From the NCBI RefSeq assembly GCF_053078305.1, contig NZ_CP166879.1: a stretch of 64,000 bases of DNA; one strand, given 5' to 3'. Numbering within the stretch: the stretch's first letter is position 1; every line of letters starts with the position of its first letter. Position numbers and translations under genes: made by a program. Positions 40,831 through 46,276 of the stretch are shown here, one piece after another. The notes below the pieces were generated by a model that ran no database searches, was not told where the DNA came from, and saw only the letters and a program-made list of their open reading frames with translations.

Positions 40831-41607
40831 ATGCATTCGGAAAATATTGCGGCTTACGTCGGGCTGGATGTGCATAAAGAAACGTTGGAGGTTGCTATTG
40901 CTGCACCTGAACGGCTTGGCGAAGTTCATTATTATGGTACGATTAACAACGAAGCCCAGGCTGTACGTCGATTATTTCAGAAATTGCAGGGACTTTACGG
41001 AAACATTCTTTCCTGCTATGAGGCTGGCCCCTGTGGTTTTGGGCTGTATCATCAACTCACAGCGATGAATATAAAATGCCAGGTTATTGCCCCTTCCCGG
41101 ATACCAAAATCACCGACAGACAGAATCAAAAATGATCATCGGGACGCAATTTCTCTCGCCAGGTTACTGCGGGCTGGAGAACTTACCCCTGCCTGGATCC
41201 CTGACCTGACTCATGAAGCTATGCGGGATCTAATCAGAGCCCGTGCAGCAGCTAAACGAGACAGCAGAGTTGCCCGACAGCGAATTCTGAGCATGCTATT
41301 GCGAACAGACAAACATTATGCAGGAAAGCACTGGACAGGAAAACACCGAACCTGGTTAGCTAATCAATCATTTAGTCAGCCATCTCAACAGATTGCTTTT
41401 CAGCACTATTGTCAGAGTCTGGAGCAGATTGAAGATCGCATACAGAAAATTAATGGTCATACGGCTGTTATCACATTTGATCCCGATATTGAGATGTTTC
41501 GCAGTGAGTTTACAGGCCTGAATGGCGGAGCTGATTTTTACGCGCACAGCGTAGAGGAGTTTAAGCGCAAAGGGATTAAGTCACTTGAAATTGAACCGGC
41601 CCCTTGA
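40831..41607 (+). pseudogene. IS110-family transposase N-terminal (DEDD) fragment fused to a HicB-like antitoxin fragment
   Basis: YVGLDVHKETLEVAI...CYEAGPCGFGLYHQL...KNDHRDAISLARLLRAGEL is the IS110 N-terminal domain. The C-terminal transposase domain is missing. The tail HTAVITFDPDIEMFRSEFTGLNGGADFYAHSVEEFKRKG resembles HicB N-termini. Confidence 0.65.
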
Positions 41608-41961
41608 AACGCCAGACAGTGGATGTATCTTAAAATAAGAGATAGGCTTGGATATATGTCTAACACTAGTGCTAATTTTGAGATGACTGGAATTTTGCTG
41701 GGGCAGGAGCTTCGTAAACGTAAAACTCCTCAGGAAAAAATCGCCATTATTCAGCAGACAATGGAACCCGGTATGACGGTGTCCCATGTGGCGCGTTTGC
41801 ATGGTATTCAGCCCAGCCTGTTGTTTAAGTGGAAAAAACAATATCTGGAAGGAAGTCTCACTGCTGTTGCTGCCGGAGAGGATGTCGTTCCTGCCTCAGA
41901 ACTGGCTGCCGCTATAAAACAAATAAAAGAGTTACAGCGCTTGCTGGGTAAGAAATCTATG

Positions 41962-42228
41962 GTCCCCACCATTTTTGCAACACTGATTTTGATTGATGTT
42001 GGCTTGCCTAAATCTATCCGGCGTCATTATGGGCATGGATGCCCGCGCCTCGATGAGTTCCGCACCTGATGAGCCCAAAAAACCATCCGGCTTCAGTGAG
42101 CCATTTTCTTGCTGAGGCTTTTCATCAGGCCGATATGCCGTTCATGTCATCAATAATCAGTCTTCGCAAAACCAGATTGGGAACTACTTTAATTCATGAT
42201 TAACCTGCCAGCCAGACTGGCGCCATCG
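41962..42228 (-). ncRNA. candidate guide RNA (bridge RNA / seekRNA) region of the IS1111-group element
   Basis: 267-bp non-coding end downstream of the recombinase. It contains AAATCTAT (42010-42017), identical to the target flank 41953-41960, and an 8-bp stem at 42065-42072/42122-42129. RNA ends are not determined. Confidence 0.3.
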
Positions 42229-43233
42229 TTACCTTTCGAACACAGTCTGCTGTGTTGTGATTGCCCACGCTATCCGGGCTAATTTGTTGGCCAGTGCGCA
42301 ACATACTACGCTGGAGTGTTTTCTTGCCAACAACGCCCTGACCCAATCCGCCAACCTTCCTGACTGATTCTCGATTCTCTGAATAAAGGATCTTGCGCAC
42401 TGAACGAGTAACCGTCGCAGATTTTTATCTCCACGTTTACTTATCCCTAAAAGTGTATTTTTACCACCTGTGCTGTACTGCCGGGGTACCAGACCGGTTG
42501 AAGCAGCAAAGTCCCGACTGCAGCTATATTGTTTACCGTCTCCCAGCTGCGATGACAGTACGCTGGCGGTTATCGGACCAATACCGGGTATTGTCTGAAG
42601 ACGTTGTCCTACCTCATCACGACTCAGTTCCTGCTCCAGTGCGATTTCAAGCTCGGTGATCTGTCCGACAAGATAAATATAATGGGCATGTAAGCGCATC
42701 AGTAACTGCGCCAGATAGGGAGGAAGTTCGTTCTCTGCAAGTACTGTTGAAAGTCGTTTTACCACTGCGACTCCTGTCGGCATACTGATGCCAAATTCCA
42801 GCAAAAAAGCATGCATCTGATTGGTCGTTTTGACTTTATCACTGACCAATGATTCCCTGGCCCGGTGAAGCGCCCGCATGGCCTGCTGAGCTTCTGTTCG
42901 TGGTTGCACAAATCGCATGGAGGGACGAGATGCCGCTTCGCATATGGCTTCTGCATCGACAAAATCGTTCTTGTTGCTCTTAACAAAAGGGCGAACGAAC
43001 TGCGGAGAAATCAATTTTGCTTCATGACCTAAATCAGCAATCCGGCGAGCCATAAAATGAGCTCCGGCGCAGGCTTCCATCACAACGGTAGACGAGGCAC
43101 AGCCTGCCAGAAACTCAATAAGTTTGGTACGGGTAAACTTTTTACGCAGCAATACCTTGCCTGACTTATCTTGGCAGTGAATGTGAAAGGAATGCTTGCC
43201 AAGATCTATACCAATAAGCGTAATGTTTTGCAT
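42229..43233 (-). CDS. IS110-family (IS1111 group) DEDD recombinase/transposase
   Basis: ATG 43233 (GGAGAAG RBS). 334 aa; MQNITLIGIDLGKHSFHIHCQDKSGK...PQFVRPFVKSNKNDFVDAEAICEAASRPSMRFV...STGGKNTLLGISKRGDKNLRRLLVQCAR closely parallels my memory of the IS4321/IS5075 transposases. Confidence 0.85.
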   Translation of the reverse strand: MQNITLIGIDLGKHSFHIHCQDKSGKVLLRKKFTRTKLIEFLAGCASSTVVMEACAGAHFMARRIADLGHEAKLISPQFVRPFVKSNKNDFVDAEAICEAASRPSMRFVQPRTEAQQAMRALHRARESLVSDKVKTTNQMHAFLLEFGISMPTGVAVVKRLSTVLAENELPPYLAQLLMRLHAHYIYLVGQITELEIALEQELSRDEVGQRLQTIPGIGPITASVLSSQLGDGKQYSCSRDFAASTGLVPRQYSTGGKNTLLGISKRGDKNLRRLLVQCARSFIQRIENQSGRLADWVRALLARKHSSVVCCALANKLARIAWAITTQQTVFER

Positions 43234-43358
43234 GATGGTCTTCTCCATGAAAGAAAAACACTCTACTAGGGTACAGCTCACAGGGTGGTGGGGACCATCT
43301 CATTAACCATGGAAGTTGAGATCCTCAAAGAAGCGGTGGAGTATGGTCAGTCGCGAAA

Positions 43359-44240
43359 ATGGATAGCGCATGCGCCCTTGTTGCCAACGGACAAGGAATA
43401 ACCCTGGTAAGCCGTATTCTGGGCGTGTCGCGTGCGCAACTGGCACAACGGATGAAAACATCTGGTAATAAGCCGAATAAACGTCGTCGCAGATGTGATG
43501 AGGCTGCGGATGCGGAAGTGTTAGCACGTATCCTTGATATCATCAGCGATATGCCGACATATGGCTATCGTCGTGTCTGGGCCATTCTCAGACGACAGTC
43601 CCGTAACAAAGGAGTGCCGTTCGTGAATGCAAAGCGCGTTTATCGGATAATGAGCGAAAATAACCTGTTGTTGTTACATGACAAACCTTCACGACCGCAG
43701 CGGGAACATAAAGGCCGAATATCGGTGAAGGAAAGCGACCAGCGCTGGTGTTCTGATGGCTTTGAGTTCGGTTGTGATGATGGCGCAAAACTGCGTGTCA
43801 CGTTCGCACTGGACTGTTGCGATCGTGAAGCCATAGACTGGGCCGCAAGCACGGGAGGTTATGACAAAGCAACGGTGCAGGATGTCATGTTAGGAGCAAT
43901 AGAAAAACGCTTTGGCGATAAAGGAGCGGAACGGCCAATCCAGTGGCTGACTGATAACGGTTCGGCTTATACAGCTCATGAAACACGGCAGTTCGCCAGA
44001 GAGTTGAATCTGGAGCCCTGCACGACGGCAGTCAGTAGCCCTCAGAGCAATGGAATGGCAGAAAGGTTTGTGAAAACGATGAAAGAAGACTACATCGCGT
44101 TCATGCCGAAACCGAATGTAAGAACGGCATTGCATAACCTTGCAGTGGCGATCGAGCATTACAATGAACCCCATCCGCATAGTGCGTTAGGTTATCTCTC
44201 ACCAAGGGAATATCGACGTCTGCGGGTAACGTCAACTTAA
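43359..44240 (+). CDS. IS2-like orfB (InsD-like DDE transposase)
   Basis: 293 aa collinear with IS2 InsD ([82 protein letters not shown]). In the -1 frame relative to the orfA end. Confidence 0.85.
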
Positions 44241-44272
44241 GATACAACGACTGTCTGAATATCGTGGGTCAA

Positions 44273-46276
44273 GGACAGTTTTTTCCTGCGTGTAAATCAA
44301 TAAATGCTGTTGTATCACCGAACAGAATATTTGAACTGTCTGACTGAATGTCACCTTTTACATCTGCGTTGCGACCGACAGAAAAGTCACTATTTTCAAG
44401 ATATAATGTACCGAATCTGAAAGTGCCATTTTCCCAGTCTGGCTGAGATAAATCAGATACAGTGTTACTGGTTTTATGGATATTACCACTCTGTCTTGCA
44501 ATATCTGCTTCTGTTTTCTGAATTTCGGCGACATAGTCTCTGCCACATAAGAAGCGTATTGGAGCAGGCAGTGAACAGGAGAAATTTCCATCACGGTAAA
44601 TAGCGTGTTCAGTGGCATGTCCCTGCATGGTCAGTTGTGTATTCCGCAGCCTTATATCATTTTGGATATTTATTTCACCATCGAGAATAAGACGATTATT
44701 TTCCTTTTTGGTCTCATGCTGCTGAATTATCGCCACGTTTCCATTTATTTTTCCATGATAGATATAATTAGTATTATTTTTCAGGAATAATTTTGCTTCT
44801 TTATCTGCTGTGTTTGTTATTACAGCGCCTGAATCAGTTGCAGCAATTTTATTGAAAGACTGGTCGTAACCATTCAGGTCAAGCGTACCTCCATTTCTGG
44901 TGAAGAAAATCCCGTTATACTCACCTTCGGACAGTGCTTTTTCTGCATTCAGTTTTACTGTTCCATTGCCGCCAGCCATATAGATATTATTGAAAGCATT
45001 TGTAGCACTGAGATTTACTGTACCATCCCCTGTTTTTAGATTTCCTCCCTAGGAGACCTTCACATTGAGTGTACCTGCACCTATTTTATGAAGGTTATCG
45101 TTTGTCGTGCCTTTCAGGAACCAGTCAACAGTCGAATTTTCACCAATATCAATACCTGCACCAGTATAGATAATATTATCTCCTGTGACAGTATATTTAT
45201 GTCCTTTATCAAAGACAAGTCCGCCACTACCGAGATTAAGATTACTGGTTATGTTCAGTGTTCCCCCACCATGAATAACATTATCTTTATTATTCGAGAG
45301 GGACGTCTGAGATAATTGATTTCCGTTCAGGATAATATCCTGAGAGTATTTTTTCTTTAAATTGTCAACGGTAGTCTGATTCCAGCGGTTTACTGCCGAA
45401 CGAACATTACCGTTGCCATAAATATATTCATCATAAAGAGTACCAAGCACAACCCATTTTTTCTATATTGTCATACAGCAAAAATGGCGATCCGCTGTCA
45501 CCGGAAGTTGTACGATTTCCAAACTCATCAAAAAGGTTATGTGTCGTAATATGTCCGGACCTCCAGTCATCCACGAGCACAAATGAACCATTCAGTAACT
45601 CAGGGACATATGAGACATCTTTGTAATTTATAGTCTTTCCACTTTTCTGTAGTGCCAGGTAACCAGAACCGGCTCTGAAAGCAATTAATTTCTTCTCTCC
45701 TTTAAAATTAATGCCATATCGTTCAATAGCTTGTTCCTTAGTCAGTGACGTATTTGCTCCGGAAACAATCCCTTTTGTTTCCACAACATATTTATTCAGT
45801 CGTGTGACGGCAAAGTCATTACTCGTGTTCCTGTCAACATACTTATAATTTGTTTGCCCCCATGACTGGGTGGCAATGGCATGATGCGTTATTTGATTAT
45901 GTGTCGCGGTAACACTATAAGCGCCGCCAATGGATGTGGATGCTCCTTTGTTTGATACAGGCGAAAAATCGGGGAATGGTACTTCAGGTAATCTATAAAC
46001 AGAACCATCCTTTTTTATAATAGAAATATTTTCATTACCTGCAGTAAATACGCCTTTATTCTGGGCAAAATCAAGATAATCCCGAATATAAAAATTATCA
46101 ATCCACATGTGCGATGCCATTGAGCTTGTAGCAAACAGCATTCCAGCAGGAACCACGATAACAGGTGCCAGTCTGATCTTTTTTCCTGATGCAGTAGTAA
46201 CTCTTTTGGTCAATTCAGAAACGGCAACCAGCCCCCCGGTGATTGCACTGAACTTTAGAGAATAAATTTTGTTCAT
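44273..46276 (-). pseudogene. serine protease autotransporter (SPATE) pseudogene: N-terminal ~650 codons, frameshifted, truncated by the IS2-like element
   Basis: MNKIYSLKFSAITGGLVAVSELTKRV extended signal peptide and S6 peptidase with GDSGSPFLLYD (ORF 45431-46276). It continues in two other frames (45049-45450; 44269-44979 with LTMQGHATEHAIYRDG). The beta-barrel translocator is absent. Confidence 0.85.

What the first reader, a model, noticed from the sequence alone, without database searches (positions are those of the whole stretch)
41953..42228. Guide-RNA-like non-coding end of the nested IS1111-group element carries an 8-nt copy of its own target flank
IS110/IS1111 recombinases use an element-encoded RNA (bridge RNA / seekRNA) whose loops match the target and the IS ends. 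In the IS1111 group this RNA lies 3' of the recombinase gene, which is where the 267-bp non-coding end sits here. AAATCTAT at 42010-42017 is identical to the 8 nt of IS2-like orfA abutting the insertion (41953-41960). The expected chance occurrence in a window this size, counting both strands, is of order 0.01. GATGTTGG (41995-42002) is a 6/8 match to the other flank, GAAGTTGA (43312-43319). ATTAACC (42199-42205) repeats the 7 nt just inside the opposite IS end (43302-43308). An 8-bp stem (42065-42072/42122-42129) brackets the centre. Relatives IS4321/IS5075 target Tn21-type terminal repeats, whereas this copy sits in an IS3-family gene. That implies a reprogrammed guide.
Basis: partly seen in the sequence, partly recalled or inferred. 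Interest (0 to 1): 0.55.

Follow-up and report, generated by a model that had tools for sequence, protein, structure and literature searches.

The report
Guide RNA end of a nested IS

Summary
An uninterrupted copy of the IS3-family orfA reads GGTAAGAAAACCATGGAAG. The element is therefore window 41956-43305 (1350 bp, ends TAATGAG...CCATAGA, the same as IS4321).

The "flank" AAATCTAT (41953-41960) is 3 nt of flank plus 5 nt of the element's own right end. Its copy at 42010-42017 (RNA AUAGAUUU) has a 7-nt core, AUAGAUU, that is invariant in 32 relatives inserted at unrelated sites. It is not a reprogrammed target guide. It may be a donor-end guide.

They are RNA AAGAAAA (42110-42104) and AUGGUUUU (42086-42079), which match the two strands of CCATGGTTTTCTT across the insertion point. 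The same two loop positions change with the flanks across relatives (permutation test, 0 of 20,000). They also reproduce the known IS4321 target in the Tn21 inverted repeat.

Every copy of this IS examined (11 occupied sites, six different flank sequences) sits at the same position of an IS2-group orfA.

Verdict: this is a seekRNA/bridge-RNA element of the IS4321/IS5075 clade (73% aa identity), naturally retargeted. The mechanism is known, the member is new, and the interest is modest.

The parts
41956..43305 (-). Complete IS1111-group insertion sequence, 1350 bp. In IS orientation it runs 5'-TAATGAGATGGTCCCCACCA...TGGTGGGGACCATAGA-3'. One T is shared with the target, so the boundary is ambiguous by 1 nt.
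   Evidence: Occupied site compared with the uninterrupted IS3-family orfA L014. The termini are the same as in IS4321 (L092), where these ends give 1327 bp and the flanks rejoin to a 38-nt sequence.
42229..43233 (-). Transposase/recombinase gene, 334 aa and intact. It has the DEDD (RuvC-like) domain and the IS110-family C-terminal domain.
   Evidence: Pfam PF01548 at 9e-21 and PF02371 at 3e-23. It is 73% identical to the IS4321/IS5075 transposases. RefSeq annotates the same gene as 'IS110 family RNA-guided transposase'.
43286..43305 (-). Left end: the 7-nt extension TAATGAG (43305-43299) followed by the subterminal inverted repeat ATGGTCCCCACCA (43298-43286).
41956..41971 (-). Right end: the subterminal inverted repeat TGGTGGGGACCAT (41971-41959) followed by the 3-nt extension AGA (41958-41956).
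   Evidence: CCATAGA ends nearly every family member examined.
41956..42228 (-). The 273-bp non-coding end, 3' of the transposase gene. It is the template of the presumed seekRNA/bridge RNA.
   Evidence: It is more conserved among relatives than the transposase gene: about 86% DNA identity where the gene drops below megablast reach.
42065..42129 (-). Target-binding stem-loop (seekRNA core). The outer stem is CCUGAUGA/UCAUCAGG (42129-42122 / 42072-42065). It encloses an internal loop and an inner hairpin.
   Evidence: RNAalifold consensus. Four of the 8 outer-stem pairs show compensatory changes.
42104..42110 (-). 5' target guide ('T'). RNA AAGAAAA is identical to the bottom strand and so pairs with the top strand TTTTCTT of the target. 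Extended to 42112, RNA GCAAGAAAA is a perfect 9-mer against the GGGCAAGAAAA variants of the target.
   Evidence: This loop position covaries with the right flank in relatives.
42079..42086 (-). 3' target guide ('B'). RNA AUGGUUUU is identical to the top strand of the target, CC-ATGGTTTT-CTT, and pairs with the bottom strand. It overlaps the T guide over TTTT at the insertion point.
   Evidence: This loop position covaries with the left flank in relatives.
42088..42103 (-). Inner hairpin UGGCUCACUGAAGCCG between the two guides. It is nearly invariant in the family.
   Evidence: Together with the following U-run it scores as terminator-like.
42149..42167 (-). 5' arm of the long-range closing stem (RNA GCGAAGACUGAUUAUUGAU). 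It pairs with 41993-41977.
   Evidence: Pairing is 99.8% but almost invariant, so covariation gives no evidence either way. This arm also lies inside the exact 22-nt pattern used to collect L015-L087, so its invariance is partly by construction.
41977..41993 (-). 3' arm of the closing stem (RNA AUCAAAAUCAGUGUUGC). It also carries TTGCAA, the predicted -35 box of the circle-junction promoter.
42021..42050 (-). Second hairpin, GGCGCGGGCAUCCAUGCCCAUAAUGACGCC. The two conserved single-strand segments of the putative donor loop flank it.
   Evidence: Two of the 4 distal pairs show compensatory changes.
42010..42017 (-). RNA AUAGAUUU is identical to the right-end terminus ATAGA plus the shared T and TT of the flank. 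Its 7-nt core AUAGAUU is invariant in 32 relatives. It is a putative donor (right-end) guide, not a target guide.
   Evidence: A151-T157 are invariant. In IS4321 the RNA has AUAGAUUC and the junction has ATAGATTC.
42051..42060 (-). 5' strand of the putative donor loop, RNA AACUCAUCGA. CUCAU is identical to the bottom strand of the left end (CCATCTCATTA).
   Evidence: The match is only 5-6 nt and shows no covariation, so support is weak.
41947..41955 (+). Left half of the interrupted target in the IS3-family (IS2-group) orfA: GGTAAGAAA.
43306..43319 (+). Right half of the interrupted target: ACCATGGAAGTTGA.

Best explanation
Window 41956-43305 (minus strand) is an intact 1350-bp IS1111-group insertion sequence of the IS4321/IS5075/IS1328 clade. 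It is inserted in the orfA of an IS2-group (IS3-family) element.

Its 273-bp non-coding end, 3' of the recombinase gene, is the template for a seekRNA/bridge RNA. In that RNA a stem (42129-42122 / 42072-42065) closes an internal loop around a small hairpin.
- The 5' loop strand carries AAGAAAA (42110-42104). It can pair with the top strand of the target to the right of the crossover.
- The 3' loop strand carries AUGGUUUU (42086-42079). It can pair with the bottom strand to the left of the crossover.
- The two guides overlap on the T-run of CCATGG-TTTT-CTT, where the element entered.

The recombinase-RNA complex therefore reads both strands of GGCAAGAAAACCATGG. This motif is conserved in IS2-group orfA genes, so the element repeatedly lands in those genes.

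It sits on the 3' side of a second loop. It equals the element's own right-end terminus plus the shared T. It most likely contacts the donor end, or the integrated right junction, and not the target.

Shown here: the element boundaries, the site specificity, the covariation of guides with targets across relatives, and conserved stems with some compensatory changes.

Inferred, not shown: that the RNA is made, that it binds the recombinase, and that the invariant segment acts on the donor.
For: Boundaries:
- Empty site L014 compared with the occupied window.
- The ends are identical to those of IS4321.
- A second empty/occupied pair exists for a relative at fabF-pabC.

Protein: DEDD plus Transposase_20 domains, and 73% identity to IS4321/IS5075.

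Site specificity: all 11 occupied sites of this IS (98.3-99.9% identical) lie at the same position of IS2-group orfA genes. These are the window plus L001-L006 and L088-L091. Their flanks fall into six different sequences: window/L001; the pAA plasmids; L088 and L089 (same left flank, different right flanks); L090; and L091, for which only the left-end junction was found.

Guides:
- In the window, 8 nt and 7 nt match opposite strands and overlap at the insertion point.
- In 25 non-redundant family insertions the same two loop positions match their own flanks, for example L072 UAAACGUCAA/GGCUGUUG, L080 AGCAUGAAAA/ACACUUUUUU and L007 AUAAAAAA/GCGUUUUUU.
- Mean cognate score is 15.9 against 10.8 for non-cognate pairs. 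In 20,000 permutations none reached the observed sum.
- Positive control: the IS4321 loop carries AAAACGGAAA and UAUUUUC, which match the sequence obtained by rejoining its two flanks.

Structure: the consensus fold has 97.9% of cells paired, against 29-40% when the partners are slid. Six pairs carry double changes, 4 of them in the target-loop stem.

Literature: in IS1111-type seekRNAs the top-strand match lies 5' of the bottom-strand match, the two overlap in the target, and natural retargeting is known (PMC11187229). Bridge RNAs of the IS1111 group lie in the right end, with donor-binding nucleotides in a multiloop (PMC11208160).
Against: There are no expression data, so no transcript or RNA ends are known.

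Rfam 15 returns no family hit. This says little, because no matching family appears to be in the library.

The single-sequence fold is not significantly more stable than shuffled sequence (z = -1.74).

Within the window alone the guide matches are short. The joint chance of matches this long is about 0.015 by shuffling. The case rests on the family comparison.

The T guide has one mismatch to this window's target (GCAAGAAAA against GTAAGAAAA).

The donor-guide role of AUAGAUUU cannot be tested by covariation, because the element ends are invariant across the clade, even in Burkholderia. In ISEc11 the short seekRNA without the downstream part sufficed for transposition.

The number of T's shared at the crossover is inconsistent by one between cases. 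The window and IS4321 fit one shared T. L011 and L072 fit none.
Confidence: 0.85

Rival explanations
1. AAATCTAT at 42010-42017, with GATGTTGG at 41995-42002, is the reprogrammed target guide. It copies the IS3-orfA flank.
For: The 8-nt identity is real and lies in the right kind of region.
Against: Five of the 8 'flank' bases are the IS terminus. The 7-nt core AUAGAUU is invariant in 32 relatives with unrelated left flanks and varied right flanks. The GATGTTGG segment is identical in L048 and L058, whose flanks are unrelated. The flank-specific variation sits elsewhere in the non-coding end.
Confidence: 0.03
2. The invariant AUAGAUUU segment is not a nucleic-acid guide at all. On this view it is a structural or protein-binding element of the RNA. 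It can pair with CUCAUC across the second loop. Alternatively it is a DNA-level subterminal binding site for the recombinase. Its identity to the right-end terminus would then be incidental, or would reflect duplicated protein sites.
For: RNAalifold pairs UCAUC (42057-42053) with GAUAGA. Only one-sided changes are seen there. In ISEc11 the short seekRNA alone supports movement, and how the ends are bound is stated to be unknown.
Against: The segment equals the exact terminal 5 nt plus the shared T. In IS4321 the 8th base changes together with the junction: AUAGAUUC against ATAGATTC. In L009 and L072 it does not. Its position, on the 3' strand of an internal loop flanking a hairpin, mirrors the 3' target guide. 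Donor-binding nucleotides in a multiloop were predicted for IS1111 elements.
Confidence: 0.3
3. All the short matches, the reader's and mine, are chance in an AT-rich, T-run-rich context. Site choice is made by the protein alone.
For: Matches in the window alone are only 7-8 nt. T-runs inflate background matching: non-cognate pairs still score 10.8.
Against: The permutation test gives 0 of 20,000. Non-T-run targets are also tracked, for example L072 UAAACGUCAA/GGCUGUUG. The IS4321 control works. Reprogramming has been shown experimentally in the same family.
Confidence: 0.02

Closest known systems
IS4321 / IS5075 (IS1111 group; the 'hunters' of Tn21-family terminal inverted repeats)
   Same: The termini are identical (TAATGAG + ATGGTC.. 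... ..GACCAT + AGA). The subterminal inverted repeats, the 334-aa recombinase, the architecture of the non-coding end, the invariant AUAGAUU segment and the single shared T at the crossover are all the same.
   Different: Amino-acid identity is only 73%, so it is a distinct IS. The two loop guides differ: AAGAAAA/AUGGUUUU here, AAAACGGAAA/UAUUUUC there. The target is an IS2-group orfA and not the 38-bp Tn21 inverted repeat.
ISEc11 / ISXne4 seekRNA (Siddiquee et al. 2024, PMC11187229)
   Same: The RNA comes from the 3' non-coding region. The top-strand match lies 5' of the bottom-strand match. The two matches overlap at the insertion point. Close relatives are naturally redirected. A junction promoter forms on circularisation.
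   Different: ISEc11 is a distant recombinase; its protein sequence shows little similarity to this one on inspection, and the identity was not computed here. It is 1443 bp and has a different target (GTGAAAATACTG). Nothing has been tested experimentally for the present element.
IS621 bridge RNA (IS110 group; Durrant et al. 2024, PMC11208160)
   Same: Each binding loop is an internal loop whose two strands read opposite DNA strands on either side of a shared core. Target and donor are handled by separate modules.
   Different: The RNA lies in the right end, not the left end. The order of the guides is reversed. The subterminal repeats are long. The shared core looks like a single T, not CT. 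The putative donor module sits in a multiloop closed by a long-range stem, and its function is untested.

Membership tests
IS1111 group of the IS110 family | DEDD/RuvC-like N-terminal domain plus the IS110-type C-terminal domain | tested here: met
   PF01548 at 9.1e-21 and PF02371 at 3.3e-23.
IS1111 group of the IS110 family | Subterminal inverted repeats with short terminal extensions (7 nt at the left, 3 nt at the right) | tested here: met
   13-nt ATGGTCCCCACCA / TGGTGGGGACCAT, with extensions TAATGAG and AGA.
IS1111 group of the IS110 family | Long non-coding region downstream of the transposase gene | tested here: met
   273 bp downstream against 72 bp upstream.
IS1111 group of the IS110 family | Site- and orientation-specific insertion without a conventional target duplication | tested here: met
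   Empty against occupied site. The position is the same in six different flank contexts.
IS1111 group of the IS110 family | Circular intermediate with a junction promoter | not testable with these tools
   In silico only. Joining the ends gives TTGCAA-17 nt-GATAAT.
seekRNA / bridge RNA | Two short loop segments complementary to opposite strands of the target, top-strand match 5', overlapping at the insertion point | tested here: met
   42110-42104 and 42086-42079. The layout matches PMC11187229.
seekRNA / bridge RNA | The guide segments change with the target among relatives (programmability) | tested here: met
   18 distinct guide pairs; no permutation in 20,000 reached the observed score. 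IS4321 control.
seekRNA / bridge RNA | Conserved secondary structure supported by compensatory changes | tested here: met
   The stem of the target loop has double changes in 4 of 8 pairs. 97.9% of cells are paired, against under 40% when slid. The other helices are invariant.
seekRNA / bridge RNA | Donor-binding segments matching the element ends | tested here: inconclusive
   AUAGAU(UU) equals the right-end terminus plus T. CUCAU equals the bottom strand of the left end. Both RNA and ends are invariant, so covariation is impossible.
seekRNA / bridge RNA | The RNA is transcribed, processed and bound by the recombinase | not testable with these tools
   No expression data.
seekRNA / bridge RNA | Match to a curated covariance model | tested here: not met
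   No Rfam 15 hit better than E = 2.8, and only to unrelated snoRNA models. The published bridge-RNA models are not in the library, so this is uninformative.
IS4321/IS5075 isoform | Near-identical transposase and the Tn21 inverted-repeat target | tested here: not met
   73% aa identity. The target is an IS2-group orfA.

The most novel reading that the evidence does not exclude
It would read across terminus, shared T and the first flank bases, which is the integrated right junction rather than the circle junction. With CUCAU on the opposite loop strand it would form a donor/excision module in the 'long seekRNA' part. That would bear on a question stated as open for IS1111 elements: how the ends are recognised and what the long RNA is for.
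Probability: 0.3. Interest if true: 0.55.

Novelty: new member of a known kind. Interest (0 to 1): 0.3.

Why it matters
This is a clean natural example of retargeting within the IS4321/IS5075 clade. The ends and scaffold are the same, and two short loop segments are rewritten so that the element attacks the transposase gene of IS2-group elements and not the Tn21 inverted repeats.

The family alignment gathered here pins down exactly which loop positions are programmable in this clade and which are fixed. It comprises 32 sequences from Escherichia, Salmonella, Yersinia, Xenorhabdus, Photorhabdus, Symbiopectobacterium, Erwinia and Serratia; a Burkholderia relative read by eye shows the same layout. 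That is useful for annotating such elements and for choosing orthologues for engineering.

It does not reveal a new mechanism.

Tried and rejected
- Rfam scan of 41500-43800 at E <= 10: only spurious snoRNA/sRNA hits.
- Single-sequence folding of the whole non-coding end: z = -1.74, not informative.
- Search of the seekRNA paper's supplements for this family's motifs: none found. The protein fasta there only placed the recombinase near IS4321, IS1328 and ISAzvi4 and far from ISEc11.
- Partridge & Hall 2003 (PMC219399) is not held. The Tn21 inverted-repeat sequence and the IS4321 length of 1327 bp are therefore from memory. They were checked against L092, where the flanks rejoin to exactly 38 bp.
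- Attempt to test the donor-guide idea by covariation, using more distant relatives (Yersinia pYV IS1328-like L093, Burkholderia L094). Their ends and the AUAGAUU segment are unchanged, so no test is possible.
- Considered that AAATCTATG might be target sequence conserved in all relatives' flanks. Rejected by two empty-site comparisons.
- Considered the promoter-like site at 42330-42303 (minus strand) as an RNA promoter. There was 1 hit against 1.5 expected by chance, so it is not evidence.
- The exact number of shared T's at the crossover could not be settled. The window and IS4321 fit one. L011 and L072 fit none, and T-run length polymorphism is a possible cause.

Full report
**What is there**

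Window 41500-43800 contains an IS3-family (IS2-group) element. Its orfA (HTH_Tnp_1 domain) is interrupted, and its orfB (rve domain) follows at 43359-44240. Between the two halves lies a minus-strand gene (43233-42229, 334 aa) with the DEDD_Tnp_IS110 and Transposase_20 domains. It is flanked by inverted repeats, ATGGTCCCCACCA and TGGTGGGGACCAT.

**The boundaries are 6 bp off**

The uninterrupted sequence (L014) reads CTGGGTAAGAAAACCATGGAAGTTGAG, not ...AAGAAATCTATGGAAG. Both readings keep orfA in frame (KKTME against KKSME), and both give a 1350-bp insert. That is why the error could not be seen from the window alone.

The element is therefore 41956-43305. In its own orientation it runs TAATGAG-ATGGTCCCCACCA ... 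TGGTGGGGACCAT-AGA. A relative inserted between fabF and pabC of E. coli C5 has the same ends when compared with the empty site in another strain. So does IS4321 in a Tn21-family inverted repeat. There these ends give 1327 bp, and the flanks rejoin to exactly 38 bp with one T shared. That 1327 bp is the catalogued IS4321 length, and the 38-bp sequence is the Tn21 inverted repeat, are both from my memory.

**Same IS, always the same site**

Eleven occupied sites of this IS were examined. They lie in the window, in a Japanese clinical chromosome, in large plasmids of bovine and food isolates, in the aggR (pAA) plasmids including those of O104:H4, in an E. albertii plasmid and in others. The copies are 98.3-99.9% identical to the window copy. 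All sit at the same position of IS2-group orfA genes.

The surrounding sequence is much more diverged than the IS itself. There are six different flank sequences, one of them in an orfA relic reading ACGATGGAAAATGAACTCCTCAAAGAA. That relic looks like IS2 itself (from memory), and only its left-end junction was located. These are independent insertions into a conserved motif, GG(C/T)AAGAAAACCATGGAAG.

**Where the guides really are**

The 22-nt invariant string GCGAAGACTGATTATTGATGAC from the non-coding end retrieved 73 loci from one-genome-per-species contigs. They come from Xenorhabdus, Photorhabdus, Symbiopectobacterium, Erwinia, Serratia, Yersinia, Pectobacterium and others.

Aligning 32 diverse non-coding ends shows long invariant blocks interrupted by two short hypervariable stretches. 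Both lie in the internal loop between the outer stem CCUGAUGA/UCAUCAGG and a nearly invariant hairpin UGGCUCACUGAAGCCG.
- The 5' stretch equals the bottom strand of each element's own right flank.
- The 3' stretch equals the top strand of its own left flank plus the T-run.

Examples are L072 UAAACGUCAA and GGCUGUUG, L080 AGCAUGAAAA and ACACUUUUUU, L007 AUAAAAAA and GCGUUUUUU, and Xenorhabdus GAAACAAAA and GGGAGUUUUU. With 18 distinct guide pairs, cognate scores average 15.9 nt against 10.8 for non-cognate pairs. None of 20,000 permutations of target assignment reached the observed sum.

IS4321 serves as a positive control. Its loop carries AAAACGGAAA and UAUUUUC, which match CTTTATTTTCCGTTTTCTGAG of the Tn21 inverted repeat.

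In the window the guides are AAGAAAA (42110-42104) and AUGGUUUU (42086-42079). Extended by two bases, the first becomes GCAAGAAAA, which is perfect against the GGGCAAGAAAA target variants. The two guides overlap on TTTT of CCATGGTTTTCTT.

This is the layout published for IS1111-type seekRNAs: the top-strand match lies 5' of the bottom-strand match, and the two overlap in the target (PMC11187229). It also fits the location predicted for IS1111 bridge RNAs (PMC11208160).

**Structure**

The RNAalifold consensus has four main features:
- a long-range closing stem (42167-42149 with 41993-41977);
- the target stem-loop;
- a second hairpin (42050-42021);
- single-stranded segments on either side of that hairpin.

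On the alignment, 97.9% of cells pair, against 29-40% when the partners are slid. Six pairs carry double changes, four of them in the stem of the target loop. The closing stem is almost invariant, so covariation says nothing about it; its 5' arm also lies inside the exact pattern used to collect the relatives. The window sequence folded alone is not unusually stable (z = -1.74).

AAATCTAT at 42010-42017 (RNA AUAGAUUU) lies on the 3' side of the second hairpin. AUAGAUU is invariant in all 32 sequences, whatever the flanks. It equals the terminal ATAGA of the right end, plus the shared T, plus the first flank T.

By analogy with the 3' target guide, it is best read as a donor-end guide. CUCAU on the opposite strand (42056-42052) would match the bottom strand of the left end. 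This remains an inference. The ends are invariant even in a Burkholderia relative, so covariation cannot test it. In ISEc11 the short seekRNA alone sufficed for transposition.

GATGTTGG (41995-42002) is identical in Xenorhabdus relatives with unrelated flanks. ATTAACC (42199-42205) lies in the non-conserved part next to the stop codon. Both are chance matches.

**Comparison with known systems and novelty**

The recombinase is 73% identical to those of IS4321 and IS5075 and shares their termini. It is a distinct IS of that clade with rewritten loop guides. Natural retargeting of this kind has been described for ISEc11 and ISXne4. RefSeq already annotates the protein as an 'IS110 family RNA-guided transposase'.

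I found no paper describing this element's RNA or its IS2-orfA target, but the library searched is partial.

**Limits**

Nothing here shows that the RNA exists in cells. The count of shared T's at the crossover differs by one between cases. The donor-guide reading is untested.

Noticed in passing
L007, L008, L011/L013, L044, L053, L055, L067 (flanks listed): Most relatives of this IS sit exactly between the GC-rich hairpin and the T-tract of intrinsic-terminator-like sites. One example is the hairpin and T-run in the fabF-pabC intergenic region of E. coli C5. The recombinase gene points in the direction in which hairpin then T-tract are read. The 3' guide equals the 3' half of the stem plus the T-run. 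Splitting a terminator could let upstream transcription read into the element.
   Followed up: partly
window 41977-41982 and 43300-43305/41956-41958 (ends joined in silico): Joining the right end to the left end creates TTGCAA-17 nt-GATAAT. This is a near-consensus sigma-70 promoter facing the recombinase gene. A junction promoter of this kind has been published for the circle junction of ISEc11.
   Followed up: partly
window 40831-41607 (+): A 258-aa ORF carries only the DEDD_Tnp_IS110 N-terminal domain. It begins MHSEN, as does the ISEc45 transposase in the seekRNA paper's fasta (only those five residues of the ISEc45 entry were visible). It looks like a truncated IS110-group element abutting the left end of the IS3-family element (about 41620), so this stretch is a pile-up of three IS types.
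   Followed up: no
window 42077-42103 (-): The inner hairpin of the target loop, followed by the U-run of the 3' guide, is itself scored as an intrinsic-terminator-like site. It could set the 3' end of a short RNA species.
   Followed up: no
L002-L006 (pAA/aggR plasmids; also the O104:H4 plasmids listed): The enteroaggregative-E. coli pAA plasmids carry the same IS about 480 bp downstream of aggR. There it has a frameshifted recombinase gene and sits in a decayed IS3-family orfA. In the O104:H4 plasmids the match stops at position 1310 of 1350.
   Followed up: partly
Xenorhabdus loci L019, L024, L035, L036, L039, L043, L045, L082: Many copies of one family member sit in near-identical flanks (CTCCCTT.CAGGCTACGGGAGT | TTTGTTTCGCC...). 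The target there appears to be a dispersed repeat of the host genome.
   Followed up: no
window 44269-46276 (-): ORFs next to the IS cluster look on inspection like fragments of an autotransporter (repetitive beta-helix-type sequence and a signal-peptide-like N-terminus). This would fit a virulence-plasmid or island context. No domain search was run.
   Followed up: no
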